A stretch of DNA of 64,000 bases from a virus. Position numbers and translations under genes: made by a program. Below are positions 5,007 to 31,298 of the stretch, piece after piece (the stretch's first letter is position 1; every line of letters begins with the position of its first letter). The notes beneath the pieces were generated by a model, which was not told the origin of the DNA, did no database searches, and was given only the letters and a program-made list of their open reading frames with translations. The stretch lies in IMG/VR virus record IMGVR_UViG_2929074307_000005; one strand, 5' to 3'.

Positions 5007-5058
5007 GAATAAGTGCTCCTCGTGTGGTGGTGGTGCCGGTTGCGGTCAACCGGGGTGG

Positions 5059-15395: not shown

Positions 15396-15456
15396 CGCAC
15401 CAACCATGGCGCGGTCACCAGCCGCGCCTGACACCACCAACACGAGGAGAAAACCC

Positions 15457-16515
15457 ATGCGGGTAACGCTTGACCGAGCGCAGCTTGCGCACGCCTTGTC
15501 GACCGTGACAAAGGCAGTTGAGGCCAGAACGACAATTCCGATTCTTGGCAACGTGCTTTTGTCCGCGGACAAAGGACAGCTGAGCATCACTGGCACCAAT
15601 CTCGATCTGGAAATCAGCACCAGTTTGCCGGTTCTGGATAGCCAAGAAGGCACTGTCACAGTTGCGGGTAAGTTGCTTCTGGATATTGCCAAGCGCGCCA
15701 CGAGTGACGTTAATTTGGAAGCCGACGGCAATCATCTGGTCGTTAAATCTGGCAAGAGCCGTTTCAAACTCGACACGCTTCCAGCTGCGGACTTCCCGTC
15801 CTTCAATCGCGGAAGCTTCGACACGACGATCGACATCGATCTAGCCGCGCTTGTTGGTGCGGTTAACTTCGCTGTCAGTAACGAAGACACCCGCTATTAC
15901 CTGAACGGCGTATTTTTGGAAGCGAAGGACGGCCAGATTGTTGCCACGGCAACAGACGGACATCGCCTTGCATCGACACGCATTGAGCAGGAAGCCACGT
16001 TTGCACCCGTTATTCTGCCGAACAAGCTGCTGTCATTGCTGCCCACCGGAGTCGTGTCGGTTTCGCTGTCATCAAACAAGGTGATGGTCGAGGTCGGTTC
16101 GACTGTCATCGTGTCGAAACTCGTCGACGGCACTTATCCAGATTACGAGCGCGTTATTCCAAAGCCCTCGGAGCGTGTCGCTACTCTGTCGGCTAAAGCA
16201 CTGCGCGAAGCAGTCGGCCGCACATCAGTTATCGCCAGCGAGCGTGGGCGCGCTGTGCGCTTATCATTCGCTTCGGATGCTCTGACGTTGAACGTTGCTA
16301 ATCCAGATCGCGGCGATGCGACTGAGGAGATGGAAGTCAACTTCAGTAGCGAGCCGCTGACGATCGGTTTTAACGGCCAATATGTCACCGACCTCATGGC
16401 AGCGTTTGGCGCGGATGAAGTTACGATGTCGATGGCCGATTCCGGTTCGCCTGCGCTGATCACGTCGGCAAGTAGGCCGGGATACAGGTGCGTACTTATG
16501 CCGATGCGGGTTTAG
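15457..16515 (+). CDS. dnaN: DNA polymerase III beta subunit (sliding clamp), phage-encoded
   Basis: N-terminus MRVTLDRAQLAHALSTVTKAVEARTTIPILGNVLL; three-domain length; conserved initiation element upstream. Confidence 0.85.
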   Translation: MRVTLDRAQLAHALSTVTKAVEARTTIPILGNVLLSADKGQLSITGTNLDLEISTSLPVLDSQEGTVTVAGKLLLDIAKRATSDVNLEADGNHLVVKSGKSRFKLDTLPAADFPSFNRGSFDTTIDIDLAALVGAVNFAVSNEDTRYYLNGVFLEAKDGQIVATATDGHRLASTRIEQEATFAPVILPNKLLSLLPTGVVSVSLSSNKVMVEVGSTVIVSKLVDGTYPDYERVIPKPSERVATLSAKALREAVGRTSVIASERGRAVRLSFASDALTLNVANPDRGDATEEMEVNFSSEPLTIGFNGQYVTDLMAAFGADEVTMSMADSGSPALITSASRPGYRCVLMPMRV

Positions 16516-16748: not shown

Positions 16749-17674
16749 TGGCTCCACTCCCCAAACCACAATCGACAACCGTCGGCGCGATCTACGCTGC
16801 TTACGAGGCCCAGGCGAAATCCTGGGACTCGTGGGGCATCAGCGTGGGCGAGGCGGGCACCGAATGCGACAGGGCGCTTTGGTATGGTTTCCGATGGGCG
16901 TCAGCCCACGAAGTCCACAGCGGCCGACAGCTACGCTTGTTTGCAACGGGTAACATCGAAGAGGATCGGCTTGTCGCTGATCTCGAGCGCATCGGCGTCG
17001 ACGTGCACGGGCAGCAAGACAAGATCCGGCTTGTGTCAGGGTTCGTGCGCGGCAAATGCGATGGGAAGGCAATGAATGTGCCTGAAGCGTCGAAGACTGA
17101 GCATCTGCTAGAGTTTAAATCGAGCAATGCCAATGGCTTCGCGCTGATTGTTAAGGATGGTTGTCAGAAAGCAAAGCCGCTTCATTATGCGCAGTGCCAG
17201 CTTGGAATGCACGCCTTCGGTCTGACACGATGCCTTTATCTCGTCTCGTGCAAGGACAGCGACAGCCTTTATTCCGAGCGCATCGAATACGATCTGGAAT
17301 TCTGCCTGCGACTTGTGGCGCGCTGCGAACGCATCGTGTTTTCGGACATGCCTCCAAGCAGAATTAGCGAAAACCCGGAGTTCTTCGGATGCATGTTTTG
17401 CAAGCACAAAGCGGTCTGTCACCACGACGCACAGCCACGAGTGAACTGCCGAACCTGCCTTCATGCTCAGCCTGAAAGCGGCGGTGATTGCCATATCTCA
17501 TGCGCACGATGGGCAAAGCCTTTGTCGATCGACGAACAGCGTGACGGCTGCCCGGCGCACTTGTATCTGCCGGGCATGGTGAATGGCGAACAGATCGACG
17601 TCGATGAGGATGCCGAGACGATCACTTACAGGATGAAGTCGGGTGAGGTGTGGGTGGATGGGGCTAAGGGTTAG
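16748..17674 (+). CDS. Cas4-like PD-(D/E)XK exonuclease with an Fe-S cysteine cluster
   Basis: EFK (ExK) motif and QxxxY-like HYAQCQ; N-terminal Cys plus C-terminal CMFCKHKAVC (C-x2-C-x5-C). Confidence 0.7.
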   Translation: MAPLPKPQSTTVGAIYAAYEAQAKSWDSWGISVGEAGTECDRALWYGFRWASAHEVHSGRQLRLFATGNIEEDRLVADLERIGVDVHGQQDKIRLVSGFVRGKCDGKAMNVPEASKTEHLLEFKSSNANGFALIVKDGCQKAKPLHYAQCQLGMHAFGLTRCLYLVSCKDSDSLYSERIEYDLEFCLRLVARCERIVFSDMPPSRISENPEFFGCMFCKHKAVCHHDAQPRVNCRTCLHAQPESGGDCHISCARWAKPLSIDEQRDGCPAHLYLPGMVNGEQIDVDEDAETITYRMKSGEVWVDGAKG

Positions 17675-18285
17675 GACCAGTATTGGGAAAGCTCACGAAA
17701 CTCATGGTCTAACCGGTCTCTCAGTGACTGTGCTTGAAGTTGAAGTATTCGATATCGATTACGTAAATCTAACTCGTCGTCGTGCCCAAAATAGTGCTTG
17801 TGAAACGACTGGATTGTTCCATTTAACGATTGAAAAGAATAAACAAACCCGGGGGCTAGTACCTTGGTGGCCCTGTCAATGTAAGTATCGTCAAATGGGC
17901 CAATATTAAACCCGTCGACGTCAGGATCGCGGTTGGCTAGTTGTTCATCGAATGTCATGCATAGCATTGAGCTGCACCAATCAGAGGCCGCTATCATAAC
18001 GTCAAGCTGCTCTTTGAACGACCGTCTAATGCTGGCCGCATGCTGCCGACGATTAGCGTCCAACTGTTGCTTTGCAACGACCACAGCAACGAGAACTGGG
18101 ATTCCAGCAAGGATCGTTCCGTAATTCTTCATAAGATCCAAGAATGCTTCGCCGAAGGTCGGCATCTTTGAATAGAGGGCGCCAAATACCATCGCGCATA
18201 CGCCGACATATACAACCGTTGCGACGTACAAAATCGATGAAGAAAACTGCTCGTTTTCTTTTTCAGCTTTCTCTTTATCAGACAA
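17671..18285 (-). CDS. Two-transmembrane membrane protein on the opposite strand in a low-GC island (moron; candidate exclusion or abortive-infection gene)
   Basis: Two N-terminal transmembrane helices plus a ~120-aa soluble domain; AT-rich relative to its flanks; antisense to the early operon. Confidence 0.55.
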   Translation of the reverse strand: MSDKEKAEKENEQFSSSILYVATVVYVGVCAMVFGALYSKMPTFGEAFLDLMKNYGTILAGIPVLVAVVVAKQQLDANRRQHAASIRRSFKEQLDVMIAASDWCSSMLCMTFDEQLANRDPDVDGFNIGPFDDTYIDRATKVLAPGFVYSFQSLNGTIQSFHKHYFGHDDELDLRNRYRILQLQAQSLRDRLDHEFRELSQYWS

Positions 18286-18300
18286 GGTAACGCCCCCAAC

Positions 18301-20052
18301 ATGCTAACCTTACGAAACTACCAGTCAGAAGCAATAGACGCCGTATTCGACTATTGGCAAGAGGAGGCAGGCAATCCGCTTGTTGATCTTGCGACGGGCT
18401 GCGGCAAGTCGTTGGTTATGGCGTCTTTGATCCAGCGCCTCGTTGAAGGCTGGCCTGATATGCGCGTGATGGTCGTCACCCACGTCGCGGAGCTGATCGA
18501 GCAGAATTATCTGGAATTGCTTGGCGTCTGGCCGTTTGCGCCTGCAGGCATCTATTCGGCTGGTTTGGGTCGTCGTGATGCGCGCAGTCAGATCGTTTTT
18601 GCCGGCATTCAGACTGTTCATAACAAGGCGCAGAAAATCGGTCACGTCGACGTCCTTATGGTCGACGAGTGCCACCTGATTCCGATCAACAGCAACACGA
18701 TGTATCGCAAGTTCATTGATGCGCTGCTCGAGATCAACCCGGACATGAAGATCCTCGGACTGACTGCCACACCTTATCGGCTCGACAGCGGTCGCTTGGA
18801 TGAGGGCGCGGATCGTCTGTTTGATCAGATCGTCTACACCTACGGAGTTGCTGACGGTATCCGCGACGGCTTCCTTGCTCCACTGACGAGCAAGCCGACA
18901 GCAACAGAATACGACGTTAAAGGCGTCGGGCGGCTTGGCGGCGACTACAAACAGCGCGCGCTGGAAGAGGCAATCAATCGAACAGACCTCAATGATGCTG
19001 TGGTTTCTGAGATCATAGCAAAGGGCGCTGATCGTCGCTCCTGGCTTTGTTTCTGCGCCGGTGTAAAGGCTGCGCTGGACGTGCGCGACGTCTTCAGATC
19101 TCGCGGCATTACATGCGAGGCCGTCACGGGGGATACTCCTAAGGAAGAACGCCGCCGCATCCTTGAGGACTTCAAAGCATACCGCATTCAATGTGTGACG
19201 AACAATTCAGTTCTTACGACAGGTTTCAATCATAAGGGTGTTGATTTAATTGCATTTATGCGCCCGACGCTGTCTTTGAGTTTGTACGTCCAAATGGCTG
19301 GGCGTGGCACTCGTCCGCTCTACAAGGCTGGTGCGCCACTGGATACGGTTGAGGAGCGGCTTACTGCTATCTCGGCAGGCCCTAAACGTAATTGCCTCGT
19401 CCTGGATTTCGCGAAGCTTGTCGATCGGCACGGCCCTGTCGACATGGTCGAGCCTAAAGCGCCAAGCGCTGGCAATGGGGAGCCGCCAATCAAGATCTGC
19501 CCGACAGTGCCAGACGACAATGGGGCGATTGGCTGCGGTGAGAAGGTGCACATCTCGCTGATGAAATGCCCATGTTGCGGATATGACTTCCCTCCTAACG
19601 AGGACGAGAAGCTAACCCGCCAAGCCGCTGACGTTCCGATTGTCAGCACCGCCGAAGCAGAATGGCGCAAGGTAACAGGCCGGACGTTTCACTTTCACGA
19701 AGGCAAGGGCGACAAGCCGCCTTCGGTCAAGTGCAGCTACATCGCAGGATATACGCAGATCAATGAATGGCTCTGCCCACAGCATAGCGGGTTTGCGCAA
19801 ACTAAGGCGCATCGATGGTGGACGCAGCATGGAGGCCAGCGGCCGTTTCCAAAGACGGTCATGGAGTGGCTTGAGCGCCAGCGCGAGTTGCTCACCACCG
19901 ACGAAATCAGCGTCGTGCCGAACGGCAAATACTGGAATGTGAAAGACGTGCGGGCTGGAGACGTAGCAGATAACGACAACGTTCCGGAGCCTGCGAATGA
20001 CAATGTGTCTGTTGGCCTTTCGGAGCTTCTAGACGACGAAATTCCATTTTGA
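18301..20052 (+). CDS. SF2 helicase with a zinc ribbon and a C-terminal SSB-tail-like DDEIPF
   Basis: GCGKS Walker A and DECH box. Zinc ribbon CPTVPDDNGAIGCGEK...CPCCGYDFP. C-terminus ...LLDDEIPF. Confidence 0.85.
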   Translation: MLTLRNYQSEAIDAVFDYWQEEAGNPLVDLATGCGKSLVMASLIQRLVEGWPDMRVMVVTHVAELIEQNYLELLGVWPFAPAGIYSAGLGRRDARSQIVFAGIQTVHNKAQKIGHVDVLMVDECHLIPINSNTMYRKFIDALLEINPDMKILGLTATPYRLDSGRLDEGADRLFDQIVYTYGVADGIRDGFLAPLTSKPTATEYDVKGVGRLGGDYKQRALEEAINRTDLNDAVVSEIIAKGADRRSWLCFCAGVKAALDVRDVFRSRGITCEAVTGDTPKEERRRILEDFKAYRIQCVTNNSVLTTGFNHKGVDLIAFMRPTLSLSLYVQMAGRGTRPLYKAGAPLDTVEERLTAISAGPKRNCLVLDFAKLVDRHGPVDMVEPKAPSAGNGEPPIKICPTVPDDNGAIGCGEKVHISLMKCPCCGYDFPPNEDEKLTRQAADVPIVSTAEAEWRKVTGRTFHFHEGKGDKPPSVKCSYIAGYTQINEWLCPQHSGFAQTKAHRWWTQHGGQRPFPKTVMEWLERQRELLTTDEISVVPNGKYWNVKDVRAGDVADNDNVPEPANDNVSVGLSELLDDEIPF

Positions 20053-23065: not shown

Positions 23066-24093
23066 CCGCCTACTACAACGAATTCGATCCTAAAGCTGCC
23101 GCTTGGCTGCGCGAGCTGATCAAAGCAGGACACATAGCCCCGGGAGATGTTGATGAGCGTTCAATTGTCGATATTCGACCTGCCGACCTCGTCGGATACA
23201 CACAATGTCACTTCTTTGCCGGTATCGGCGTCTGGTCCTACGCATTGCGTCGAGCAGGATGGCACGACGACCGTCCTGTCTGGACAGGTTCATGTCCCTG
23301 CCAACCTTTCAGCGCGGCAGGCAAAGGAGATGGGTTTGCTGACGAGCGGCACCTATGGCCGCACTTCCACTGGCTTATTCAAAACTGCCGACCTGCAGTC
23401 GTCTTTGGCGAGCAAGTTGCGAGCAAGGACGGACTCGGCTGGCTCGACCTTGTACAAGCTGACCTGGAAGGATCGGGCTACGCCAGCGGGGCGGTCGATA
23501 CCTGCGCTGCGGGCTTCGGTGCGCCGCACATCAGACAGCGCCTCTATTGGGTGGCCCACGCCGACGACACGCGATCACAAGGACGGAGGGGAGTGTCAGA
23601 ACGTTCCGCTGAACGCATTGTTGGGGCGAGTGGCGTGGCTGACTGGATGGCCGACGGCGAGATGTGGGGGCAATCCGGAGGGGTACGGGAACGCCGATCG
23701 TCAGAATGGACCGAGAGGAAGGTTGGAGGACACCGTGCCACTGGCAGGTTGGCCGACAACGACAACGACGGACGCATTGCGCCACCCATCACCGAACTTC
23801 AAAACAAAGAACGTCACACTGAACCACGCAGCAGCAATGGCAGGCCCGGCCCGACTAACGGCCACTGGTCAGATGCTGACTGGCTCTTTTGCCGGGATGG
23901 AAAGTGGCGGCCAGTTGAACCCGGCACATTCCCGCTGGCTCATGGGTCTGCCGCCAGAGTGGGACGATTGCGCGGTTACGGCAATGCAATCAATGCCGAG
24001 CAAGCGCAAGCGTTCATCGAAGCGTATCGCGAAACCGAATTAGTTGCAGCCAACGACAATCACTGCAGCAATACGCTGTGGCCCTCCGCATAG
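23062..24093 (+). CDS. DNA cytosine-5 methyltransferase
   Basis: Motif I FFAGIGV, motif [11 protein letters not shown], and a QxRxR-like HIRQRLY. Start uncertain (TTG 23062). Confidence 0.7.
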
Positions 24094-24248
24094 AGATGGT
24101 TGACTAGGCCAGCGGTATAGTTGGCCTGCCACTGCTCAAACCCGGTTTGAACGTTACCGCCGAGCTCGGCTACTTGTTCCGTCACTTTATCAATAACGGC
24201 CCAGGTTCCGTCTGGCATTTCTCGAATGCTGTATCTGGCTTCGTTCAT
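24060..24248 (-). CDS. Small hypothetical protein antisense between the C5-methyltransferase and the primase
   Basis: ggagaaaacgaATG on the minus strand; overlaps the methyltransferase 3' end by ~34 nt. Confidence 0.4.
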   Translation of the reverse strand: MNEARYSIREMPDGTWAVIDKVTEQVAELGGNVQTGFEQWQANYTAGLVNHLYAEGHSVLLQ

Positions 24249-24271
24249 TCGTTTTCTCCAAGGAAACAAAC

Positions 24272-26452
24272 ATGCATACTAACATCACGTCCGTTGTCGA
24301 AGAAGACCCAATGCTCGATGTTGCGTTGTCGTATCAGGCACAAAACTGGCCCGTTTTCCCATGCCGCCACCGCGACGAGGAGATTATCGACCCGCAAACC
24401 GGCGAAATTGAAATCCTTGCCACCAAGACCCCGCTGACCAGCAACGGGTTCCGTGGCGCGACGCTGAATGAGCGCATCGTCCGTGAATACTGGCGCCGCA
24501 ACCCTTACGCAATGATTGGCGTGCCAACAGGTGCGCCTATAGGTGCATGGGTTCTAGATATCGACCCGAAACACGGCGGCGACGAAACGCTTGCCGCGCT
24601 TGAGGCCGCACACGGCGCGCTACCTGCTACGCTAACCGCAGAAACCACGAGCGGCGGACGGCACTATTTCTTTCGTCATCGGCAGGGCGTTCGCAACCGT
24701 GGCGCGCTTGGCTCCGGCGTCGACGTGCGCGGTGACGGTGGTTATGTCATTGCGGCCGGCAGCGTGCCCGAGGTTGGCCTGCCTTACCGTTGGATATCTG
24801 AGCAAGAGCCGATCGACGCGCCAGACTGGTTGCTGGAACTGGTGCTGCCGCGCTCATATGAGAGCACATACACCGCAGCACCGTCTGTTAGCGGCAAGAT
24901 CAATGACCGCTATGTCGAGCGTGCAGTTCAATCTGAGCTGGACGATCTTGCGCTTGAACCGATGGGTAATCGCAACAACCGGCTGAACGACGCCGCGTTT
25001 CGTTTGGGCACGTTCGTTGGAGCCGGAGCTCTGGCTGAATCCGAAGCACGCGCTCTGCTACAAGACGTGGCACGAGGTTGGGGCCGGGACTGGCCGCGCT
25101 GTGTAAAGACGATCGACAACGGACTTGCTGCCGGTGCCCGCAGCCCGCGTAGTGTGCCACAGAACGACAACGATAACACGCGTCTGGTCGATATCAGCCG
25201 TATGATTGCCAATGGACTGGCGAAAGCGGAGGCGCGCACCGACGTGGTCGCAGAGCCAGTTTCGGATTTCGATTCATCTATAAACCAACAGGAACAAACT
25301 ACTGAAAATAAACGCGCAATCATTGCTACGCCATTCGTATGGAAAGACCCGGCGACGCTTCCACGGCGCGAGTTTGCATTCGGTAAGCACTTCATTCGCA
25401 AGTATGTGTCGGTGACGGTCGCGCCGGGCGGTCTCGGCAAAACTGCGAACAGCATCGTCGAAGCATTGGCCATGGCGTCGGGTAAAGCGCTCAATGGCAC
25501 GAAGCCGCCGAAGCGTCTTAAGGTCTGGTTGTTCAATGCCGAAGATCCGCGCGACGAGCTTGAGCGCCGCATTATGGCCGCTTGTATTCATTTCAATCTG
25601 AAGCCAGCAGATATCGACGGGCATCTGTTTCTAGACACAGGCCGCGAGCAGGAATTGGTCATTGCGATCGATGACAAGAAAGGCGTGCGGATTCAGGAAC
25701 CCGTCGTTGAAGCTGTTGTTGAAACGATCTCGGAGCTTGGCATTGACGTGATGATTGTTGACCCGTTCGTGTCGACGCACCAAGTCAATGAAAACGACAA
25801 CGGCGCAATCGACAAGGTGGCCAAGCTTTGGGCGCAGGTAGCGGATCGAACAAACTGCTCAATCGATATCGTGCATCATCTGCGAAAGGTGAGCGATCGT
25901 GAAGCAACTGTTGAAGACGCTCGCGGTGCGGTTTCGCTGATCGGTGCGGCACGTTCGGTGCGCGTGCTTAACCGTATGTCGGAAGCGCAAGCCAGTGAAG
26001 CTGGCCTTACACATGAAGCGCGGTTTTCATATTTCAGCGTGGTCTATGGCAAGTCGAACTTGTCAGCACTGTCGCACAAGGCTGACTGGCGCAAGCTGGA
26101 AAGTGTCGCGCTGGGGAACGGGCAGGGCCTGACCAAGCCTCAAGACCATGCGCCGGTCGTGACGTCATGGGCATGGCCGACAAGTGAGGAAGTTGCTGAG
26201 ACATTGACCGAGGACGAACGCGACGCAATCCGGGGTGTTGTGAACGGCGGCATGTATAAGCCGGCACCGCAGGCCAAGGATTGGGTAGGGCGCGCCGTTG
26301 CGTATGCACTGCAGCTGGACGTCGACGAAGAGACGGAAAAGAAGCGGGTGGGCATGATCACCAAAGCGCTGTTTGCAGAGGGCTTCCTAATGAAGGTGGA
26401 AGACCGGGACCCTGTTCAACGCAGGGCCACGACGTTTGTTCGAGCGATGTGA
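24272..26452 (+). CDS. Bifunctional primase-polymerase (PrimPol N-domain) fused to a RecA-like/AAA_25 ATPase domain
   Basis: PrimPol motifs DIDPKHGG and GYVIAAGS; P-loop APGGLGKT; phage P4-alpha-like organisation. Confidence 0.8.
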   Translation: MHTNITSVVEEDPMLDVALSYQAQNWPVFPCRHRDEEIIDPQTGEIEILATKTPLTSNGFRGATLNERIVREYWRRNPYAMIGVPTGAPIGAWVLDIDPKHGGDETLAALEAAHGALPATLTAETTSGGRHYFFRHRQGVRNRGALGSGVDVRGDGGYVIAAGSVPEVGLPYRWISEQEPIDAPDWLLELVLPRSYESTYTAAPSVSGKINDRYVERAVQSELDDLALEPMGNRNNRLNDAAFRLGTFVGAGALAESEARALLQDVARGWGRDWPRCVKTIDNGLAAGARSPRSVPQNDNDNTRLVDISRMIANGLAKAEARTDVVAEPVSDFDSSINQQEQTTENKRAIIATPFVWKDPATLPRREFAFGKHFIRKYVSVTVAPGGLGKTANSIVEALAMASGKALNGTKPPKRLKVWLFNAEDPRDELERRIMAACIHFNLKPADIDGHLFLDTGREQELVIAIDDKKGVRIQEPVVEAVVETISELGIDVMIVDPFVSTHQVNENDNGAIDKVAKLWAQVADRTNCSIDIVHHLRKVSDREATVEDARGAVSLIGAARSVRVLNRMSEAQASEAGLTHEARFSYFSVVYGKSNLSALSHKADWRKLESVALGNGQGLTKPQDHAPVVTSWAWPTSEEVAETLTEDERDAIRGVVNGGMYKPAPQAKDWVGRAVAYALQLDVDEETEKKRVGMITKALFAEGFLMKVEDRDPVQRRATTFVRAM

Positions 26453-26455
26453 AAA

Positions 26456-26481
26456 GAGCGCCCTACGGGGCGCTTTTTTTG
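26456..26481 (+). terminator. Rho-independent terminator after the primase
   Basis: GAGCGCCC-tacg-GGGCGCTC stem followed by T7. Confidence 0.7.
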
Positions 26482-26600
26482 TTAGATCGACGCACGGTTT
26501 ATCCAAAAGTATTCTGAAATGGCTTGCTTGCTCCCACTAATCTGGTTGATCGGTCGAAAACAAAGATCTATTGAAAGAAGGGGATAACAGGCGGGGTAAA

Positions 26601-26930
26601 ATGACTAGGTTTTTTCTGTTCTTCTTGATTTCTTGCACTTTGATCTCTGGAGTAAACGCTGCTGTTTATGAGACTTTGAACAAACTGCCGGATAAAATGA
26701 GGATGCTATACATCACTGGGATGGGCGAAGGGTTCATGTGGTCCAGTGCAGCAGTTAAAAACAATTACGATAAGATATACTGCCCACCGCAACACATCGG
26801 GTTGAATGGGGATCAATACGTGGCAGTGCTTGACGGATTTGTTAAAAGGCATCCAGAAATGGAGGCAGATAAAATGGAGATAGGCCACCTCATGTATACG
26901 GCTCTTCAAGAGAGCTTTCCGTGCAAATAA
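26601..26930 (+). CDS. Small secreted protein (signal peptide) in a low-GC island
   Basis: MTRFFLFFLISCTLISGVNA signal-like N-terminus; AT-rich. Confidence 0.5.
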   Translation: MTRFFLFFLISCTLISGVNAAVYETLNKLPDKMRMLYITGMGEGFMWSSAAVKNNYDKIYCPPQHIGLNGDQYVAVLDGFVKRHPEMEADKMEIGHLMYTALQESFPCK

Positions 26931-26987
26931 TACTGTTTAAGTGGCTGGGTACAACCCGCTGTCACAATCAAAATACAACCATAGGTA

Positions 26988-27135
26988 ACGCGTAAGTCTT
27001 GTTGCGTAAGTCTCAAAAAACCTAAAAAGACTTGCGCAAAAGCACGCTGCTTTTAGTGCGTAAGAGTTCTTATATAGAAACTTACGCACAAAGCGCGCAG
27101 CGCGTAGTTCTATGCGTTTGAGAACTACGCACTTT
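26988..27135. repeat. Iteron-like array: GCGTAAG(T/A) repeats in both orientations, plus a 10-bp inverted repeat GCGTAGTTCT...AGAACTACGC
   Basis: At least five copies of GCGTAAG or its reverse complement within 150 bp; perfect inverted arms at 27102-27131. Confidence 0.5.
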
Positions 27136-27311
27136 TTAGAAAATTTCCTGATTGAAAAATACAACCTGATTTGAGGTTGGTTGAAATTATGCCGGTTGAC
27201 GCTTGACCGACCTGTCACTCCCGCCATGATGTGAATTGTTCCGCTACCAACGGGACAACCGCAACGGAAGCCCACCAAGCTGACGCACCATGAAAACGAG
27301 GAGAGACACGG

Positions 27312-27821
27312 ATGCGAAACATCTGGTTTATGAGCGATACCCATTTTGGGCACGCGAACATCATCAAATACAGCCGAACGCAGTTCGATAGCGTTGATGA
27401 GATGGAAAGCGCCATCATCGAGCGCTGGAATGAAAAGGTGAGTAAGCAAGACCTGGTTTATCATCTCGGAGATTTTGCATGGTCGGCAAAAGACGCAAAG
27501 CGCGTCAGACCTAAACTCAATGGCTCCATTCGCCTGATTGTTGGCAATCATGATGACATTCCTGCGCTGGCATCTGCTGGACTATTCCAAAGAATTCAGA
27601 TGTGGCGTCAGTTTTCCGAAATCGGAGTAACTGCATCGCACTTACCAATGAGGCGAGAACAAATCCGCCACGGCAGTATGAACGTCCATGGCCACGTACA
27701 CGGCAATACCAGTGGGTTGGAAAACTTTCATTTCGATGTATCTGCGGAAAGCGTGAATTATTCGCCAGTCCATTTCGACGAGATTGCAGACTGGGCTAAT
27801 TCGAACAGGGCATCATCATGA
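27312..27821 (+). CDS. Calcineurin-like metallophosphoesterase
   Basis: DTHFGH, GDF and GNHD motifs; aaaACGAGGAGagacacggATG upstream. Confidence 0.8.
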   Translation: MRNIWFMSDTHFGHANIIKYSRTQFDSVDEMESAIIERWNEKVSKQDLVYHLGDFAWSAKDAKRVRPKLNGSIRLIVGNHDDIPALASAGLFQRIQMWRQFSEIGVTASHLPMRREQIRHGSMNVHGHVHGNTSGLENFHFDVSAESVNYSPVHFDEIADWANSNRASS

Positions 27822-28339
27822 AGGCCCGCAAACCAAAGGTTGGCACTTCGGTGTCAACCCAGACTGTCCGCATTAATGGCATCAGAACAATCATTACGAC
27901 ACGCGACGGCAAGGTGACAACAAAAGCAGCCCTGCCTCTGGAATGGGAACTGCAAGCAGCACAAGTTCGCAGCCTGCGTAAACTGCCAGAATACGTGCAC
28001 ACAGCGCGAGACGTGCAGCTGGGAACATTCACACTGGCTGGAGATCAGAACGCAGCCAAGCGTGGCCCCAAGGCGAGAGCGGAAGCGTTAGCGGCAGGAC
28101 TGACGCCGGGAGAAGCAGACGTCCGGATATATCTCTACGGTGGCGTGCTGCGGCAGATTGAAAACAAGGTCGGCAAGGCGAAGCTCGAACCAAGCCAGAT
28201 AACCCGTCACCAGCTGCTTGATGCTCTTGGCTTTCCCGTCGTGGTCGTCAGGGCAGTTACCGAGGATGATGCAGCGGAACAGGCGGTAAGGCTGGTTAAA
28301 GGCTGGCTGAGTGAAAGCGCGACAAACCAAGCCGCGTAA
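27818..28339 (+). CDS. Hypothetical protein
   Basis: ATGA overlap with the upstream gene. Confidence 0.5.
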   Translation: MKARKPKVGTSVSTQTVRINGIRTIITTRDGKVTTKAALPLEWELQAAQVRSLRKLPEYVHTARDVQLGTFTLAGDQNAAKRGPKARAEALAAGLTPGEADVRIYLYGGVLRQIENKVGKAKLEPSQITRHQLLDALGFPVVVVRAVTEDDAAEQAVRLVKGWLSESATNQAA

Positions 28340-28367
28340 GTGATGAACCAAACACGAGGAGAATTTT

Positions 28368-28733
28368 ATGAGCAAAGCAGTAACAAACAAAATCATCCCT
28401 GAAGGCTTCTATTGGTCGAAGTTGTGCGGAATGGCTTTAAGAAAGAGACAGCTAGGATCACCTGTATCTGTAGAACGGCACACCATGGCCCCAAGTTCTT
28501 TGTTGAGGCGGGCGCTTGCAGAAATATCGTCTGTCGAGAACGACGCGAATGAAGCCAAAAAGCTGACATCAGAAGACGCTTCCCGTTACGGTTCTGCATT
28601 GTGGTCTGGCAAACTGAAAGAATATTTCTCGTGGAGGGCGGGGCAGGGCTTGTCGTGGTGGCATGAACAAGAGCGCCTTTATCCTTCCGCAGCCAATGAC
28701 AATTCGGCAGCAGCAGTCAGGAAGGCAGCATGA
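28368..28733 (+). CDS. Hypothetical protein (C-terminal AANDNSAAAV)
   Basis: ccaaACACGAGGAGaattttATG upstream. Confidence 0.45.
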   Translation: MSKAVTNKIIPEGFYWSKLCGMALRKRQLGSPVSVERHTMAPSSLLRRALAEISSVENDANEAKKLTSEDASRYGSALWSGKLKEYFSWRAGQGLSWWHEQERLYPSAANDNSAAAVRKAA

Positions 28734-29638
28734 GCAGGCACAAGTCCCTTGCCGGAGCCATGACTGCTTTGATGGCTTACAAAAATCGGCCTGAAAGCGA
28801 AATCATACCCGTTTCAACAAACTGGAATGTGGTGCCTGAGAATAGCAACGAACCTGAAGTGATATCGCAGATGCATACTGAGCGGCGCATTCAGATACTT
28901 CCGACCGTTGAGGAAATCATGCGGAATGTCGGCAGTGAGGACATCGAGCGCAATGATCTAGGCCAGATAGTTCGTATAGGTCGCCTCAAATTCAGCGATG
29001 GCACGCAAGTTGAGGCAGGAAATAAATATGGACCCGGTGGCGAGGTAATCGCCACCAAACACCGAATGCCAGCGGGTGCAATGCTTGGATGCCGTGAACA
29101 GGAAAGCAGAGCGCTAGGAGGAGATGAAAATCCATCCGAAGTTGCAGCAAGTAATAACTACTTTCTAGCTGCGTTCGAATTGAAGCGCCGAGAGCGTATT
29201 CCATCAGGGAAAAAGACAAAACGAACTTATCAAACGCATGACCAAGCGAAAGAAGACCTCGCAAAAGCATACGCAAACACGCCAGCGCTGCCGCCAGTAA
29301 CAAGATGCCGGCCTGGCCTACCCAATGCAGGCAACCGCATTGGAGACAGCTTTCTTGGGATGAAGAAAACGACAACTGGTGAATCGGGATCAATGGGGTG
29401 GCAAGACGTTTCTAGTGCCCTGGTAGATCGCGAGATATGGGCCCAAGCCATTGAGGCGCTATCGGAGAGGGATAGAACGGCAATGGATACGGCGGCACAT
29501 GGGAAGGTGAGGAACTACGAAGGGTTAGGGATATCTTTGGGCTTCAAGACAGAATATTCGAGACGCAAGGGCGGACGGAAGGCCTTAACGGCGGCCAATG
29601 ATAATCTTCAAGAAAACATAAAAAGATTTTCTGCCTAG
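28730..29638 (+). CDS. Hypothetical protein (C-terminal AANDNLQENI)
   Basis: ATGA overlap with the upstream gene. Confidence 0.5.
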   Translation: MSRHKSLAGAMTALMAYKNRPESEIIPVSTNWNVVPENSNEPEVISQMHTERRIQILPTVEEIMRNVGSEDIERNDLGQIVRIGRLKFSDGTQVEAGNKYGPGGEVIATKHRMPAGAMLGCREQESRALGGDENPSEVAASNNYFLAAFELKRRERIPSGKKTKRTYQTHDQAKEDLAKAYANTPALPPVTRCRPGLPNAGNRIGDSFLGMKKTTTGESGSMGWQDVSSALVDREIWAQAIEALSERDRTAMDTAAHGKVRNYEGLGISLGFKTEYSRRKGGRKALTAANDNLQENIKRFSA

Positions 29639-29970
29639 GTCCATATTTCGCATAGTTATGGTTCTTAGATGTGAAGGGGTCGAGATGGAGACATTACGAC
29701 CTCTAACAGTTCCGACCACGGACCCTGCGCTATGCTGCATCAAGTGCAGCCTCTGAGTGTGGGGTAACTACCCGACGACGGTATTCAGTCGTCAATCGGA
29801 AAAGCAAGCGCAATCCCCTGCAGTCATTGGCTCGCAGACATAGGCAGTGCACGCCTGCATTGCGCTTGCCACTCTATTCAAATCCCCGGCGCCGTTTCTC
29901 CTCCGGCAGACGGGATACGGCGGGTTGAGGTTGGCAACGATAAAGCCAGTGCCTCCCCGCCAAACAATTC

Positions 29971-30046
29971 GCCCTTGTAGCTCAGTTGGGAGAGCGGCTG
30001 CCTTGTAAGCAGATGGTCCGGGGTTCTATTCCTCGCGAGGGCACCA
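29971..30046 (+). tRNA. tRNA-Thr (anticodon UGU), 76 nt with encoded CCA
   Basis: Cloverleaf folded by hand: acceptor GCCCTTG/CGAGGGC, D-arm GCTC..GAGC, anticodon loop cTTGTaa, T-arm CGGGG/CCTCG; one G-A mismatch in the anticodon stem. Confidence 0.65.
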
Positions 30047-30053
30047 ATTCAAT

Positions 30054-30129
30054 GCGGAGTGGAGAAGTGGTCATCTCGTCTGGTTCATACCCAGAAGACC
30101 GTCGGTTCGAATCCGACCTACCGCAACCA
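30054..30129 (+). tRNA. tRNA-Met-like (anticodon CAU) with an imperfect acceptor stem; possible degenerate phage tRNA
   Basis: Perfect T-arm GTCGG-TTCGAAT-CCGAC and anticodon arm TCTGG-ttCATac-CCAGA. Initiator-like 3' end CCGCAACCA. Acceptor stem has two mismatches. Confidence 0.45.
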
Positions 30130-30243
30130 AACAAGACCAATGGCATCTGTAATTCTTGACCTCTTGCAGATGCTTATCAGCGGGTGAGCGAAAGCTCCCC
30201 GCTGTTCTTGATAGAGGTCATTATCAGCCAATGGAGTCAAGCC

Positions 30244-30900
30244 ATGGGTTCTTTCAGGGATTTATCAGGCCAGATATTTGGTCGACTGACCGTAATTGAT
30301 CGAGCACCCAATAAGGGTGGGCGTACAATGTGGAATTATTTGTGTGAATGCGGGAACGCAGGAAGTACTGCGTCATACTACCTTACAACGGGCGGAACCA
30401 CGAGTTGTGGCTGTTTCCATCGAGAAATGGTTGGAAAAATGGGCCGCGATCAAATCATCCATGGTGCCACGAAGGGCGGCAAGCTGACAGCGACTTACTC
30501 ATCGTGGAGCGCAATGCGTGAAAGGGTGCTGAGTAAAACGCATCACGCATACGCTAGGTATGGCGGACGAGGTATTAAGATTTGTGATCGCTGGCTTGTG
30601 GGTGAAGGTTTGCTTTCCGGCTACGAGTGCTTCCTAGAAGATATGGGCGAGCGACCTGACGGGCATTCAATAGACCGCATTGACACCAACGGTAACTATG
30701 AGCCCGGTAATTGCCGTTGGGCTACACCTGCAACGCAGGCGAGAAACGCAGTCGACAATAAGATGTCAGGCATGGATGTTGGCATCCTTCACGCCATGGT
30801 GGCTAATGATAACTCACCTCTGTCAACGATGGCTGATAGGTTCGGTATATCCAAGCAGCATGCTTGGAGGATCAAGACAGGGCAGAGATGGGCGGCATAG
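30244..30900 (+). CDS. HNH_3-type endonuclease-like protein
   Basis: HSIDRIDTNGNYEPGNCRWATPATQARN; C-terminal VANDNSPLS. Confidence 0.55.
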   Translation: MGSFRDLSGQIFGRLTVIDRAPNKGGRTMWNYLCECGNAGSTASYYLTTGGTTSCGCFHREMVGKMGRDQIIHGATKGGKLTATYSSWSAMRERVLSKTHHAYARYGGRGIKICDRWLVGEGLLSGYECFLEDMGERPDGHSIDRIDTNGNYEPGNCRWATPATQARNAVDNKMSGMDVGILHAMVANDNSPLSTMADRFGISKQHAWRIKTGQRWAA

Positions 30901-31193
30901 GCCAACGAAGCGTTGAGGCTCGTCAGTATCACAAGCTTTATCGTACAGCGCGTTGGCAGCGTCTAAGGCAACATCAACTCGCACAGCAACCGCTTTGTGA
31001 GTGGTGCCTGCAAATGGAAATCATTGAACCTGCAACTGAGGTCCACCACCACGGGCCGCATCGAGGCGACTTGGATAAATTCTGGTCTGGGCCGTTCATA
31101 TCCACATGCAAGTCATGCCACGCCTCACGCGGTCAACGTGAAGACCTCGGGCAAACCATCGTGACTTTCGGGGCCGATGGGTGGCCGGTTTAA
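30888..31193 (+). CDS. Small HNH endonuclease of the terminase-associated type
   Basis: YRTARWQRLRQHQLAQQPLCEWC...EVHH; located immediately upstream of TerS. Confidence 0.75.
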   Translation: MGGIGQRSVEARQYHKLYRTARWQRLRQHQLAQQPLCEWCLQMEIIEPATEVHHHGPHRGDLDKFWSGPFISTCKSCHASRGQREDLGQTIVTFGADGWPV

Positions 31194-31298
31194 CCCCCGG
31201 GCATAACAAAAAGTCCAACGCTTTCGATTCCAACGGAACGGCGAGGGACTGTCGAACGCGATCCCGCAAGTTTTCAAAGTTTTTTTTACAGGTGAATA

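What the first reader, a model, noticed from the sequence alone, without database searches (positions are those of the whole stretch)
26480..27311. Low-GC island after the primase: secreted small protein plus an iteron-like repeat array (candidate ori or regulatory locus)
Downstream of the primase terminator lies a signal-peptide protein (26601..26930). It is followed by at least five GCGTAAG repeats in both orientations and a perfect GCGTAGTTCT/AGAACTACGC inverted repeat, all in AT-rich DNA. In P4-like and similar replicons the origin lies next to the primase. The array could therefore be the replication origin, where the repeat-bearing helicase or primase might bind. It could equally be an operator array for the secreted-protein moron.
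Basis: partly seen in the sequence, partly recalled or inferred. Interest (0 to 1): 0.55.

Follow-up and report, generated by a model that had tools for sequence, protein, structure and literature searches.

The report
Predicted prophage replication origin, plus cargo gene
The repeat-rich stretch after the primase gene of this Ochrobactrum/Brucella prophage is most likely the phage's replication origin, where its own primase-helicase docks, while the small secreted protein beside it is an unrelated, swappable cargo gene.

Summary
A low-GC stretch follows the primase terminator. It holds a signal-peptide ORF (26601..26930) and a dense array of GCGTA(A)G..TCT sites: 4 exact GCGTAAG and 7 related sites in 143 nt, against about 0.05 expected.

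Comparison with about 80 related prophages splits the finding in two.
- **Cargo gene.** The ORF is a Rap1a-like periplasmic protein. It sits in a hypervariable slot of 0.5-5 kb that holds kinases, porins, an autotransporter or defence-like NTPases in relatives.
- **Conserved element.** The array (26950..27180) is a fixed-size non-coding element present in nearly every relative whose sequence reaches that far.

The element has three inverted-repeat pairs, mirror-symmetric about a TATATA centre, and is bracketed by invariant ATACAACC motifs. The same design, with phage-specific repeats, follows the homologous RepA-like helicase gene in Rhizobium phage 16-3, in satellite-like elements and in other contexts.

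In one natural swap, only two things changed together: the repeats and the last ~70 residues of the primase-helicase, a predicted winged-helix domain.

Best reading (confidence ~0.65): an iteron-type origin for a self-loading primase-helicase, organised like the SaPI/PICI pri-rep-ori and P4 alpha/ori systems. The reading "operator array for the moron" is rejected. This is a new variant of a known kind, of moderate interest.

The parts
24272..26452 (+). Primase-helicase gene (726 aa). It has an N-terminal AEP Prim-Pol domain, an AAA_25 helicase domain related to RSF1010 RepA, and a C-terminal ~90-residue predicted winged-helix domain. It is the proposed initiator.
   Evidence: Pfam gives Prim-Pol E=7.6e-38 and AAA_25 E=8.1e-34. 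RSF1010 RepA (1g8y) matches at E=7e-6. The AF2 model of the last 190 aa ends in H-H-H-beta-beta with pLDDT about 88. Fold matches are weak and go to winged-helix domains.
26452..26479 (+). Intrinsic-terminator-like hairpin (AAAAGAGCGCCC / GGGCGCTTTTTT plus a T run) ending the primase transcription unit. It marks the left edge of the cargo slot.
   Evidence: Inverted repeat I8. The first 25-30 nt after the stop are 96-100% identical in many relatives, whereas the sequence that follows is not.
26601..26930 (+). Cargo ('moron') gene: a 109-aa secreted protein related to the Rap1a family of periplasmic type VI amidase-immunity proteins. It is not part of the conserved element.
   Evidence: Pfam Rap1a scores E=2.2e-5, 25.3 bits, below the 27.7-bit cut-off. 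The protein belongs to a family of 681 representatives. 17 of 30 members match Rap1a and no other family. No relative is found in viral contigs. Only an identical protein (Ochrobactrum sp. BH3) and one 80% homologue exist, the latter in the same slot.
26950..26980 (+). Left boundary of the conserved element: TACAACC (26950-26956), CTGTCACAAT, then AAAATACAACC (26970-26980).
   Evidence: Conservation with relatives begins at about 26950. The motif columns are invariant or nearly so in 21 diverse sequences. The boundary is retained in relatives whose primase is only about 60% identical (L051, L054, L066, L068).
26990..27037 (.). Left iteron set: site a GCGTAAGTCT (26990-26999, +), site b GCGTAAGTCT (27004-27013, +), an A-rich 14-nt spacer, and site c AGACTTGCGC (27028-27037, -). 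Sites b and c form a 12-bp inverted repeat (27002-27013 / 27028-27039).
   Evidence: (D16, I11). The arms co-vary in relatives, for example GCGCACTTCT/AGAAGTTCGC in the K type.
27056..27089 (.). Central palindrome GTGCGTAAGagTTCTtatatAGAAaCTTACGCAC (sites d and e) with an AT-only centre. It is the dyad axis of the whole array.
   Evidence: I10, I16. The nhmmer model hits its own reverse complement over positions 60-191. Double compensatory changes occur in L023, L040 and L035. An exact copy is present in 11 Brucella/Ochrobactrum genomes.
27100..27132 (.). Right iteron set: site f GCGTAGTTCT (27102-27111, +), a 9-nt spacer, and site g AGAACTACGC (27121-27130, -). It is the mirror image of sites b/c.
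   Evidence: (I7). Seven of the 12 pairs show changes on both sides across relatives.
27130..27160 (.). The most AT-rich stretch of the element (23-27% GC): CACTTTTTAGAAAATTTCCTGATTGAAAAA. It is a candidate unwinding region.
   Evidence: 30-nt GC scan. That it unwinds is inference only.
27156..27179 (+). Right boundary: AAAATACAACC (27156-27166), overlapping the short inverted repeat CAACCT/AGGTTG (27162-27167 / 27174-27179).
   Evidence: D11; ATACAACCTGA is invariant. The spacing between ATACAACC copies 2 and 3 is 185-187 nt in nearly all W, K and M loci.
27203..27230 (+). Sigma-70-like promoter candidate (TTGACC-16-CATGAT) for the downstream operon. It lies outside the core element.
   Evidence: Consensus scan only; the number of hits is no higher than in shuffled sequence. 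This stretch is conserved only in close relatives.
27312..27821 (+). Metallophosphoesterase gene. It is a second, variably present gene between the element and the conserved VRR-NUC-like gene (27818..28339).
   Evidence: Pfam Metallophos_2 and phrog_547. Most relatives lack it and have the 188-aa family directly after the element. The ORF 27818..28339 is 53% identical to phage 16-3 p103.

Best explanation
Window 26950..27180 is the vegetative replication origin of a temperate prophage of Ochrobactrum/Brucella that is related to Rhizobium phage 16-3.

**Proposed mechanism.** All steps are inferred, by analogy with SaPI Rep/PriRep and P4 alpha.
1. The product of 24272..26452 is an AEP primase fused to an RSF1010-RepA-like hexameric helicase, ending in a winged-helix domain.
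2. That C-terminal domain recognises the 10-13-bp GCGTA(A)G..TCT sites.
3. The sites point in opposite directions on either side of an AT-centred palindrome, so two helicase rings can load back to back.
4. The DNA melts at the centre or in the adjacent AT-rich stretch (27130-27160).
5. The Prim-Pol domain primes, and the host polymerase, helped by the phage's own beta clamp, extends.

**Neighbouring gene.** The gene 26601..26930 is independent cargo. It has inserted into a hotspot between the initiator gene and its origin.

**What is shown and what is inferred.**
- Shown: conservation of the element, its dyad architecture, its linkage to the helicase gene across contexts, and the co-variation with the C-terminal domain.
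- Inferred: protein binding, DNA melting and origin activity.
For: **1. The array, not the ORF, is conserved.**
- Only 26950-27307 and the primase terminator match related loci, at 77-96% identity. The stretch 26483-26949 matches nothing.
- The element keeps a fixed length: 185-187 nt between ATACAACC copies 2 and 3 in nearly all W, K and M loci. Its distance from the primase stop varies from 497 to 5051 nt.

**2. The architecture is typical of an origin.**
- Seven short sites lie in both orientations.
- The whole array has dyad symmetry about a TATATA centre.
- AT-rich spacers are present.
- The arms are complementary in 85.8% of cells, against at most 48% when partners are slid. Twelve pairs carry changes on both sides.

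**3. The design recurs with lineage-specific repeats.** Short repeats flanking a central palindrome with a TTTA/TATA centre lie directly 3' of the homologous AAA_25 plus C-terminal-domain gene in:
- 16-3-like phages L052, L053, L055, L060, L066, L068, L070 and L073;
- phage 16-3 and RHph_X2_25, with at least 15 copies of GCGTGACAA;
- L074, a satellite-like element with an integrase, a Toprim-AAA_25 protein and a capsid gene;
- L075, L095, L096/L097 and L098, whose downstream genes are unrelated.

**4. A natural swap links the repeats to the C-terminal domain.**
- K-type and M-type primases differ by 3.1% in the primase domain and 1.5% in the helicase domain, the same as within the K type.
- They differ by 24.4% in the last 67 residues.
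- At the DNA level, divergence is confined to the last ~240 nt of the gene and to the iteron-bearing parts of the array. Identity returns to 90-100% within about 100-300 nt of the array in three of the four K/M pairs compared.
- The cargo between these two diverged islands is different in every M locus.
- The first conserved downstream gene shows no K/M split.

**5. The C-terminal domain looks like a winged helix.** Its model is H-H-H-beta-beta with pLDDT about 88. The best fold matches are winged-helix domains, but they are weak.

**6. There is precedent.**
- In SaPIs/PICIs the origin lies immediately 3' of rep.
- It has two iteron sets in opposite orientation around an AT-rich centre.
- It is read by a C-terminal winged-helix domain of a self-loading helicase that is sometimes fused to the primase (PMC9371898, PMC6092414).
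Against: - No replication, binding or copy-number data exist for this element or for any relative found.
- The natural swap could be a single replacement of one contiguous block (gene 3' end, cargo and array) rather than functional co-variation. It is essentially one event. The two other domain swaps (L068/L053 and L073/L066) also changed the downstream gene.
- L055 and L075 share the repeat GGTGGAGCA, yet their C-terminal domains are only 30% identical. The domain-to-repeat relationship is therefore not simple.
- Fold matches to winged-helix domains are not statistically significant (E >= 0.07).
- In this lineage the array stays close to the downstream operon while its distance from the primase varies. 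That is also what a promoter-proximal control region would show.
- GC skew shows no inflection at the site.
- The invariant ATACAACC boundary motifs are unexplained.
- Two relatives show no obvious array after the gene: RHph_X2_26 (48% identical primase) and L094.
Confidence: 0.65

Rival explanations
1. The array is a transcriptional control region for the operon to its right (VRR-NUC-like gene through to HNH and terminase). The operators would be bound by a phage regulator that evolves with its sites, and the palindromes would be operator dyads.
For: - The array always lies within about 50-250 nt of the first downstream gene, which has a conserved ribosome-binding site. Its distance from the primase varies.
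- A promoter-like TTGACC-16-CATGAT follows at 27203-27230.
- Symmetric, co-varying half-sites are also what dimeric repressors produce.
Against: - The same architecture follows the helicase gene where the downstream genes are unrelated (L074, L075, L095, L098).
- The first conserved downstream gene does not split by array type, whereas the primase C-terminus does.
- Seven to fifteen or more sites spread over 150-370 bp are far more than typical operators.
- No copy of the motif occurs near the CI-like repressor gene or anywhere else in the window.
- The promoter scan finds no more hits than in shuffled sequence.
Confidence: 0.15
2. The hairpins act in RNA. Transcribed rightward, the three stem-loops would form a structured leader or small RNA, for example an antitermination or processing signal between early and late genes. 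In that case f/g plus the T run would be a terminator.
For: - The stems are kept by compensatory changes.
- All flanking genes are on the + strand.
- In the window, f/g is followed by TTTTT.
Against: - Direct repeats cannot be explained by folding. Examples are site a, CTTTACGCA x2 in the M type, seven direct GCGCAAGTG in L052 and nine tandem CCACACC in L096.
- In the K type, site g copies the a/b motif at the cost of a G.G mismatch in the stem.
- The T run is not conserved in the M type or in L040.
- The array is symmetric at the DNA level.
- G.U versus C.A mismatches show no clear strand bias, by my tally of the pair-type table.
- No Rfam family matches at E <= 1.
Confidence: 0.07
3. The array is another kind of cis-acting DNA site. 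Possibilities are a partition or plasmid-maintenance centromere, a recombination or resolution site for the neighbouring VRR-NUC nuclease, or a packaging signal.
For: - Repeats in both orientations around a palindrome also occur in centromere-like and resolution sites.
- The VRR-NUC-like gene is the usual right-hand neighbour.
Against: - No partition genes were found among the window proteins scanned.
- By synteny with phage 16-3, cos lies about 4 kb further right, next to the HNH and terminase genes.
- The array persists where the VRR-NUC gene is absent (L074, L075, L095, L098).
- None of these ideas explains the co-variation with the primase-helicase C-terminus.
Confidence: 0.08
4. This is the first reader's alternative: the array is an operator array that controls the secreted-protein moron at 26601..26930.
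For: Adjacency in this window only.
Against: - The array lies downstream of the ORF, not upstream of it.
- The ORF is missing from all 77 viral relatives, which nonetheless keep the array.
- The slot carries at least 20 unrelated cargo families.
Confidence: 0.02

Closest known systems
SaPI / PICI 'pri-rep-ori' replicons (S. aureus SaPI1, SaPIbov1 and SaPI5 PriRep5; E. coli EcCICFT073)
   Same: - The origin is a non-coding array 3' of the initiator-helicase gene.
- It has 6-12 short iterons in two sets of opposite orientation around an AT-rich centre.
- The initiator is a self-loading helicase, sometimes fused to the primase, whose C-terminal winged-helix domain reads the iterons.
- The match between initiator and origin is allele-specific (PMC9371898, PMC6092414).

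Here, the gene order, the two opposed repeat sets, the AT centre, the fused primase-helicase, the predicted C-terminal winged helix and the allele-specific pairing are all seen.
   Different: - The helicase here is a RecA-fold, RSF1010-RepA-like (AAA_25) protein, not an SF3/SF6 AAA+ Rep. The proteins are not homologous.
- The primase is an AEP Prim-Pol.
- The sites are 10-13 bp long and arranged as three hairpin-capable inverted repeats with a true central palindrome.
- Invariant ATACAACC boundary motifs are present.
- The element belongs to a complete ~60-kb temperate phage of Alphaproteobacteria.
- The origin is separated from its gene by a cargo slot.
- Function is untested.
Satellite phage P4: alpha protein with ori and crr
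   Same: One polypeptide combines primase, helicase and a C-terminal winged-helix origin-binding domain. Its short repeated sites lie in non-coding DNA flanking the gene.
   Different: - P4 alpha is a Toprim primase fused to an SF3 helicase.
- P4 needs two separated cis regions, ori and crr. Only one array is found in this window.
- There is no sequence relationship between the two systems.
Plasmid RSF1010 (IncQ) oriV with RepA, RepB' and RepC
   Same: The helicase domain is a sequence homologue of RSF1010 RepA (1g8y, E=7e-6). From my own knowledge, RSF1010 oriV combines iterons, an AT-rich segment and hairpin-forming single-strand initiation sites (ssiA, ssiB) on opposite strands. That resembles the mirror-image hairpins b/c and g/f here.
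   Different: - In RSF1010 the iterons are read by a separate protein, RepC, and the primase is a separate protein.
- Here all activities appear fused in one protein. No RepC-like protein was identified among the window proteins scanned with Pfam or PHROGs.
- Whether the hairpins serve as priming signals is unknown.
Unannotated repeat array of Rhizobium phage 16-3 (56250-56684) and RHph_X2_25
   Same: - Both arrays occupy the same syntenic position, between the Prim-Pol/AAA_25 gene (p101) and the VRR-NUC gene (p103). The window's counterpart of p103 is 53% identical.
- Each has at least 15 copies of GCGTGACAA in both orientations.
- Each has a palindrome with a TTTA centre flanked by inverted copies.
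   Different: - The repeat sequence is different, and the C-terminal ~165 residues of the primase do not align.
- There are more copies over a longer stretch.
- There is no cargo slot.
- The 16-3 records carry no feature for this region. The known immunity regions immC (35.6-36.5 kb) and immX (18.3-18.9 kb) are elsewhere.
Rap1a (PF18602), periplasmic immunity proteins against type VI amidase effectors: comparison for the ORF 26601..26930 only
   Same: The ORF has a similar size, a signal peptide and a conserved Cys pair (C61, C108). Its family members match only Rap1a.
   Different: The window protein scores below Pfam's cut-off (25.3 against 27.7 bits). No effector gene lies next to it. It is orphan prophage cargo.

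Membership tests
Iteron-type origin of a self-loading primase-helicase (SaPI/PICI pri-rep-ori type) | A non-coding array located 3' of the initiator-helicase gene. | tested here: met
   The array lies directly after the stop codon in L053, L066, L068, L073, L074, L075, L095, L096 and L098. It lies 435 nt of pure array after p101 in phage 16-3. In the window it is 497 nt downstream, because one cargo gene lies in between.
Iteron-type origin of a self-loading primase-helicase (SaPI/PICI pri-rep-ori type) | Two sets of short repeats in opposite orientation flanking an AT-rich centre. | tested here: met
   Sites a, b and d point rightward and c leftward on the left of the centre. Sites e and g point leftward and f rightward on the right. 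The centre is TATATA near 27073. The model matches its own reverse complement.
Iteron-type origin of a self-loading primase-helicase (SaPI/PICI pri-rep-ori type) | The initiator carries a C-terminal winged-helix domain that determines which origin it uses. | tested here: inconclusive
   The predicted fold is H-H-H-beta-beta, with weak winged-helix matches. In the K/M swap the domain changes together with the repeats. However, L055 and L075 share a repeat while their domains are only 30% identical. Binding cannot be tested here.
Iteron-type origin of a self-loading primase-helicase (SaPI/PICI pri-rep-ori type) | The fragment supports replication when the initiator is supplied. | not testable with these tools
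   This needs a plasmid-maintenance or marker-frequency experiment.
Iteron-type origin of a self-loading primase-helicase (SaPI/PICI pri-rep-ori type) | The initiator is homologous to SaPI/PICI Rep (SF3 or MCM-like AAA+). | tested here: not met
   The helicase domain is AAA_25 and related to RSF1010 RepA. The system therefore works like a pri-rep-ori replicon but is not a member by descent.
RSF1010-type oriV | A RepA-family hexameric helicase. | tested here: met
   1g8y matches at E=7e-6 over residues 375-597.
RSF1010-type oriV | A separate iteron-binding initiator (RepC) and a separate primase acting at ssi hairpins. | tested here: inconclusive
   The primase is fused to the helicase. No RepC-like match appears among the window proteins scanned, but not every ORF was scanned. 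The role of the hairpins is unknown.
Operator array of the adjacent moron | The array co-occurs with the gene it would control. | tested here: not met
   The array is present without the gene in more than 60 loci, and the gene is absent from viral contigs.
Known structured RNA family (Rfam) | A match to a curated covariance model. | tested here: not met
   Only two tRNAs were found in 25500-31500 at E <= 1.
Lambda-type late control region (promoter, short leader, terminator) | A conserved terminator (hairpin plus T run) after a conserved promoter. | tested here: not met
   The T run after f/g is absent in the M type and in L040. No promoter-like site lies inside the core.
Rap1a immunity protein (ORF 26601..26930) | A match to PF18602 above the gathering score. 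| tested here: inconclusive
   The window protein scores 25.3 bits against a 27.7-bit cut-off. 17 of 30 homologues match, with a best E of 1.5e-9. The collection's precomputed table lists PF18602 for the identical protein.
Rap1a immunity protein (ORF 26601..26930) | The gene is encoded next to its cognate type VI amidase effector. | tested here: not met
   The neighbours are the primase gene and the array.

The most novel reading that the evidence does not exclude
The array and the helicase's C-terminal domain form a portable, self-contained replicon cassette: a RepA-like SF4 helicase, a winged-helix domain, and an iteron/palindrome origin.

- The cassette is shared by 16-3-like temperate phages, satellite-like elements and other mobile elements, mostly of Alphaproteobacteria.
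- It would be an independent, non-homologous invention of the SaPI/PICI origin design.
- The mirror-image hairpins would act as single-strand priming signals for the fused AEP primase, as ssiA/ssiB do in RSF1010.
- The gap between initiator gene and origin would have become a dedicated landing pad for host-fitness and defence cargo.
Probability: 0.2. Interest if true: 0.6.

Novelty: new variant of a known kind. Interest (0 to 1): 0.4.

Why it matters
If confirmed, the element would do four things.
- It would give the first mapped origin for the 16-3-like temperate phages of Rhizobiales, which include prophages common in Ochrobactrum/Brucella. In the phage 16-3 records the matching array is unannotated.
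- It would show that the design 'initiator gene, then iterons around a central palindrome' is not confined to SaPI/PICI satellites. [quoted passage not shown] Here it would have arisen with a different helicase superfamily.
- It would provide naturally matched and mismatched pairs of origin and C-terminal domain (the W, K and M types) for studying how a helicase recognises its loading site.
- It would identify a cargo hotspot that moves porins, kinases, adhesins, defence-like NTPases and a type VI immunity-like protein between strains.

In practical terms, the ~230-bp fragment plus one gene could serve as a small replicon for Ochrobactrum/Brucella genetics.

Tried and rejected
- **Megablast of 24000-29000 against GenBank phages:** no match. 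Only protein-level relatives exist there.
- **Viral-contig scan with the small protein:** nothing found.
- **Rfam at a permissive threshold:** only tRNAs.
- **ATACAACC as a recurrent promoter element:** rejected. The only other copies lie inside coding sequence (18210, 47701).
- **The equivalent array in phage 16-3 as the immX or immC immunity region:** rejected from the record's annotation, which places immX at 18.3 kb and immC at 35.6 kb. The position of avirT could not be checked because the immX paper is not held.
- **Literature searches:** these covered an origin in 16-3 or Ochrobactrum prophages. They returned nothing that maps one, judging from the hit lists and term searches in two papers.
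- **A protein within ±6 kb whose variants track the K/M array types:** none apart from the primase C-terminus.
- **The 302-aa ORF (28730..29638) as a homologue of the 16-3 sigma-like p107:** not supported.
- **RHph_X2_26:** it has no comparable array after its primase.
- **L094:** no array found.
- **Foldseek against the PDB:** no significant match, so the winged-helix assignment rests on topology and weak hits.
- **GC skew:** no origin-like inflection.
- **f/g plus T run as a conserved terminator:** rejected, because the T run is not conserved.
Full report
**What is in the window**

Bases 24272..26452 encode a 726-aa protein with an N-terminal Prim-Pol (AEP primase) domain and an AAA_25 helicase domain. 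The helicase domain is a sequence relative of the hexameric helicase RepA of plasmid RSF1010 (1g8y, E=7e-6). A hairpin plus T run follows the stop codon at 26452-26479.

GC content then drops from 0.60 to 0.41-0.44 across 26450-27199. The low-GC stretch contains a 109-aa ORF (26601..26930) with a clear signal-peptide-like N-terminus. A 381-nt non-coding region follows, up to a metallophosphoesterase gene at 27312.

The wider window is a temperate phage genome. It includes:
- a CI-like repressor;
- a Sak4-like annealing protein and an SSB-like protein;
- a Pol III beta-clamp homologue;
- a Cas4-like exonuclease and an SF2 helicase;
- three methyltransferase ORFs;
- two tRNAs, and ORFs resembling HNH endonuclease and terminase subunits.

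**Checking the observation**

There are four exact GCGTAAG sites (26990+, 27004+, 27058+, 27081-), not five or more. Window-wide, this 7-mer is not over-represented: 11 copies against 6.7 expected.

The clustering is real. With GCGTAAGTCT at up to 2 mismatches, 7 of the 48 matches in 64 kb lie within 26990-27130, where background predicts about 0.05. The GCGTAGTTCT/AGAACTACGC inverted repeat is perfect.

The seven sites are:

| Site | Sequence | Position | Strand |
|---|---|---|---|
| a | GCGTAAGTCT | 26990-26999 | + |
| b | GCGTAAGTCT | 27004-27013 | + |
| c | GCGCAAGTCT | 27028-27037 | - |
| d | GCGTAAGAGTTCT | 27058-27070 | + |
| e | GCGTAAGTTTCT | 27076-27087 | - |
| f | GCGTAGTTCT | 27102-27111 | + |
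| g | GCGTAGTTCT | 27121-27130 | - |

They form three inverted-repeat pairs: b/c, d/e and f/g. A profile of the element matches its own reverse complement over the b-to-g span. The whole array is therefore mirror-symmetric about the TATATA centre of d/e, near 27073. TACAACC/ATACAACC direct repeats bracket it at 26950, 26973 and 27159.

**Two units, not one island**

A protein-guided scan of viral contigs with the primase returned 77 related loci, 43-98% identical. An exact-match scan with the d/e palindrome found 11 Brucella/Ochrobactrum genomes. This identifies the host group.

Aligning 26453-27311 to these loci gave a clear split:
- Only the first ~30 nt (the terminator) and 26950-27307 have counterparts, at 77-96% identity.
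- The stretch 26483-26949, which holds the ORF, matches nothing.

The conserved element has a constant size: 185-187 nt between the second and third ATACAACC in nearly all W, K and M loci. Its distance from the primase stop ranges from 497 to 5051 nt.

The variable interval carries unrelated genes in different relatives:
- an HWE histidine kinase;
- an Omp25/31-like beta-barrel protein;
- a DUF892 protein;
- an HNH nuclease;
- a PEBP-family protein;
- a formamidase;
- a lipocalin;
- a Schlafen/AAA STAND-like NTPase;
- a 1034-aa autotransporter.

The window's ORF is one such cargo. It has one identical copy, named as from Ochrobactrum sp. BH3, and one 80% homologue in the same slot of a related prophage. 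It belongs to a family of 681 representative proteins. Of 30 members tested, 17 match Pfam Rap1a and no other family. The window protein itself is just below Pfam's cut-off.

The reading "operator array for the moron" therefore fails. The array lies downstream of the ORF and is conserved without it.

**Anatomy of the conserved element across relatives**

Three main sequence types occur, plus singletons:
- W type: 33 loci including the window, with GCGTAAGTCT.
- K type: 26 loci, with GCGCACTTCT.
- M type: 4 loci, with GCGTAGAG and GCGCAATC arms and direct CTTTACGCA repeats.

Complementarity of the arms is maintained. 85.8% of cells form pairs, against at most 48% when partners are slid. Twelve pairs carry changes on both sides, and 0 of 500 shuffles reach the observed covariation.

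Several features favour recognition of a DNA sequence over folding of a transcript:
- The direct copy (site a) changes in step with site b.
- In the K type, site g reproduces the a/b motif exactly even though this puts a G.G mismatch in the f/g stem.
- The M type and more distant relatives have runs of direct repeats.
- There is no consistent G.U versus C.A strand bias, by my tally of the pair-type table.
- The T run after f/g is not conserved.
- Rfam finds nothing.

**The same design elsewhere**

In relatives with 43-65% identical proteins the repeats are entirely different, but the plan is the same. Many short repeats lie in both orientations around a central palindrome with a TTTA/TATA/CTATAG centre, in the non-coding DNA after the gene. 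This holds for L052, L053, L055, L060, L066, L068, L070 and L073.

Rhizobium phage 16-3 is syntenic with the window from the repressor to cos, and its VRR-NUC protein p103 is 53% identical to the product of 27818..28339. Its p101-p103 intergenic region has at least 15 copies of GCGTGACAA plus such a palindrome. The region carries no feature in the records. RHph_X2_25 has the same repeats, with compensatory changes in the palindrome.

The array also follows the helicase gene where the rest of the context is different:
- L074 has an integrase, a Toprim-AAA_25 protein and a capsid gene, like a phage satellite.
- L075 shares only the helicase protein, plus a partial methylase match, with L055.
- L095, L096/L097 and L098 are further unrelated contexts.

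Across all these contexts, the only thing that always accompanies the array is the AAA_25 helicase with its C-terminal domain.

**Co-variation with the C-terminal domain**

K-type and M-type proteins are indistinguishable in the primase domain (3.1% different) and the helicase domain (1.5%). These values match the differences within the K type (3.3% and 1.0%). In the last 67 residues, however, they differ by 24.4%.

At the DNA level, divergence is limited to two places: the last ~240 nt of the gene and the repeat-bearing parts of the array. Identity returns to 90-100% within about 100-300 nt of the array in three of the four K/M pairs compared. The cargo between the two diverged places differs in every M locus. 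The first conserved downstream gene shows no K/M split.

C-terminal sequences sort perfectly by array type in about 58 loci.

An AlphaFold model of the last 190 residues ends in helix-helix-helix-strand-strand, with pLDDT about 88. The nearest solved folds are winged-helix domains (TFE-alpha, PadR, Cdc6/Orc1, MCM), but the scores are weak, at E >= 0.07.

**Caveats**

- The K/M contrast is essentially one event. It could be a single block replacement.
- The other two domain swaps (L068/L053 and L073/L066) also changed the downstream gene.
- L055 and L075 share GGTGGAGCA with only 30% identical C-terminal domains.
- RHph_X2_26 and L094 show no obvious array.
- GC skew has no inflection at the site.
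- The invariant ATACAACC boundary motifs, kept even where the repeats differ, are unexplained. They may bind a conserved host or phage factor.

**Best explanation**

The element is the phage's replication origin.

Its closest known counterpart in design is the SaPI/PICI pri-rep-ori replicon:
- The origin lies immediately 3' of rep.
- Six to twelve iterons form two opposed sets around an AT-rich centre.
- They are read by the C-terminal winged-helix domain of a self-loading helicase that is sometimes fused to its primase (PMC9371898).

P4 alpha/ori/crr is a second analogue (from my own knowledge). RSF1010 supplies the homologous helicase and a precedent for hairpin priming signals on opposite strands (also from my own knowledge).

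The system here is not a member of the SaPI/PICI family by descent, because the helicase belongs to a different superfamily. It is better described as a new variant of a known kind.

The mechanistic steps are inferred, not shown. They are winged-helix binding to the sites, back-to-back loading of two rings, melting at the centre or at 27130-27160 (23-27% GC), and priming by the Prim-Pol domain.

**Verdict**

| Item | Assessment |
|---|---|
| Observation | Partly confirmed |
| Origin interpretation | Supported but unproven (confidence about 0.65) |
| Moron-operator interpretation | Rejected |
| Control region for the downstream operon | About 0.15 |
| Structured RNA | About 0.07 |
| Other cis site | About 0.08 |
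| Interest | Moderate (0.4) |

An origin next to a primase-helicase gene is expected. The family-wide architecture, the natural specificity variants and the cargo hotspot between initiator and origin are useful and experimentally tractable.

Noticed in passing
window 4814(-), 9669, 14795, 19993, 21901, 22701, 24049, 28692, 29594, 30802; also L091/L092 (phage 16-3), L039, L054, L055: The peptide 'ANDN', usually (A/P)ANDN, occurs 10 times in the six-frame translation, against 0.14 expected from shuffles. Every copy is in a long ORF, 12-32 residues before the stop, and the ORFs are unrelated early and replication genes (SSB-like, SF2 helicase, three methyltransferase ORFs, HNH and others). The wobble bases vary, so selection appears to act on the peptide. 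Phage 16-3 has 17 copies, and L074, L075 and L090 have none. It may be a short docking motif for a phage hub protein, for instance the phage's own beta clamp (15406..16515).
   Followed up: partly
window 18301..20052: The SF2 helicase ends in ...SELLDDEIPF, which resembles the acidic DDDIPF tail of bacterial SSB. That resemblance is from my own knowledge and was not tested.
   Followed up: no
slot between the primase terminator and the array; window 26483..26949 and e.g. L013:4788-7418, L038:8246-11350, L024:8203-9354, L028:5667-6407: This is a cargo-integration hotspot 0.5-5 kb long. Across relatives it holds a Schlafen/AAA STAND-like NTPase (possibly a defence gene), a 1034-aa autotransporter, an HWE histidine kinase, an Omp25/31-like porin, a lipocalin, a formamidase, a PEBP protein, DUF892 and HNH. 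Some cargo genes (DUF892, about 95% identical) are shared between lineages whose primases are only 79% identical.
   Followed up: partly
window 26950-26956, 26973-26980, 27159-27166: The ATACAACC boundary motifs are invariant, even in relatives whose internal repeats are completely different (L051, L054, L066, L068). Their binding partner is unknown. They match no motif near the CI-like repressor gene.
   Followed up: partly
L089:6251-6685 (Rhizobium phage 16-3, record 56250-56684); L099:2770-3206 (RHph_X2_25): Each region holds an array of at least 15 GCGTGACAA repeats plus a CCCCCACACTCC-TTTA-GGAGTGGGGG palindrome. The array lies between the primase p101 and the VRR-NUC gene p103 of a classic model phage. 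The GenBank and RefSeq records carry no feature for it.
   Followed up: partly
L087:3973-4070 and 4919-5156 (Brucella cytisi): The left part of the element (boundary plus sites a to c) is duplicated about 850 nt upstream of the complete copy.
   Followed up: no
window 27312..27821: The metallophosphoesterase gene between the array and the VRR-NUC-like gene is present in only some relatives (the window, L009, L031). This suggests a second variable slot on the right side of the array.
   Followed up: partly
L074 (IMGVR_UViG_3300013010_002975): This small element carries an integrase, a Toprim_3-AAA_25 primase-helicase, a palindrome/iteron array and a major capsid gene. The layout resembles a phage satellite that uses the same helicase-plus-array module with a different primase domain.
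   Followed up: partly
window 17671..18285 (-): A low-GC minus-strand ORF (204 aa) is wedged between the Cas4-like exonuclease and the SF2 helicase, in an otherwise rightward operon. It may be another inserted cargo gene.
   Followed up: no
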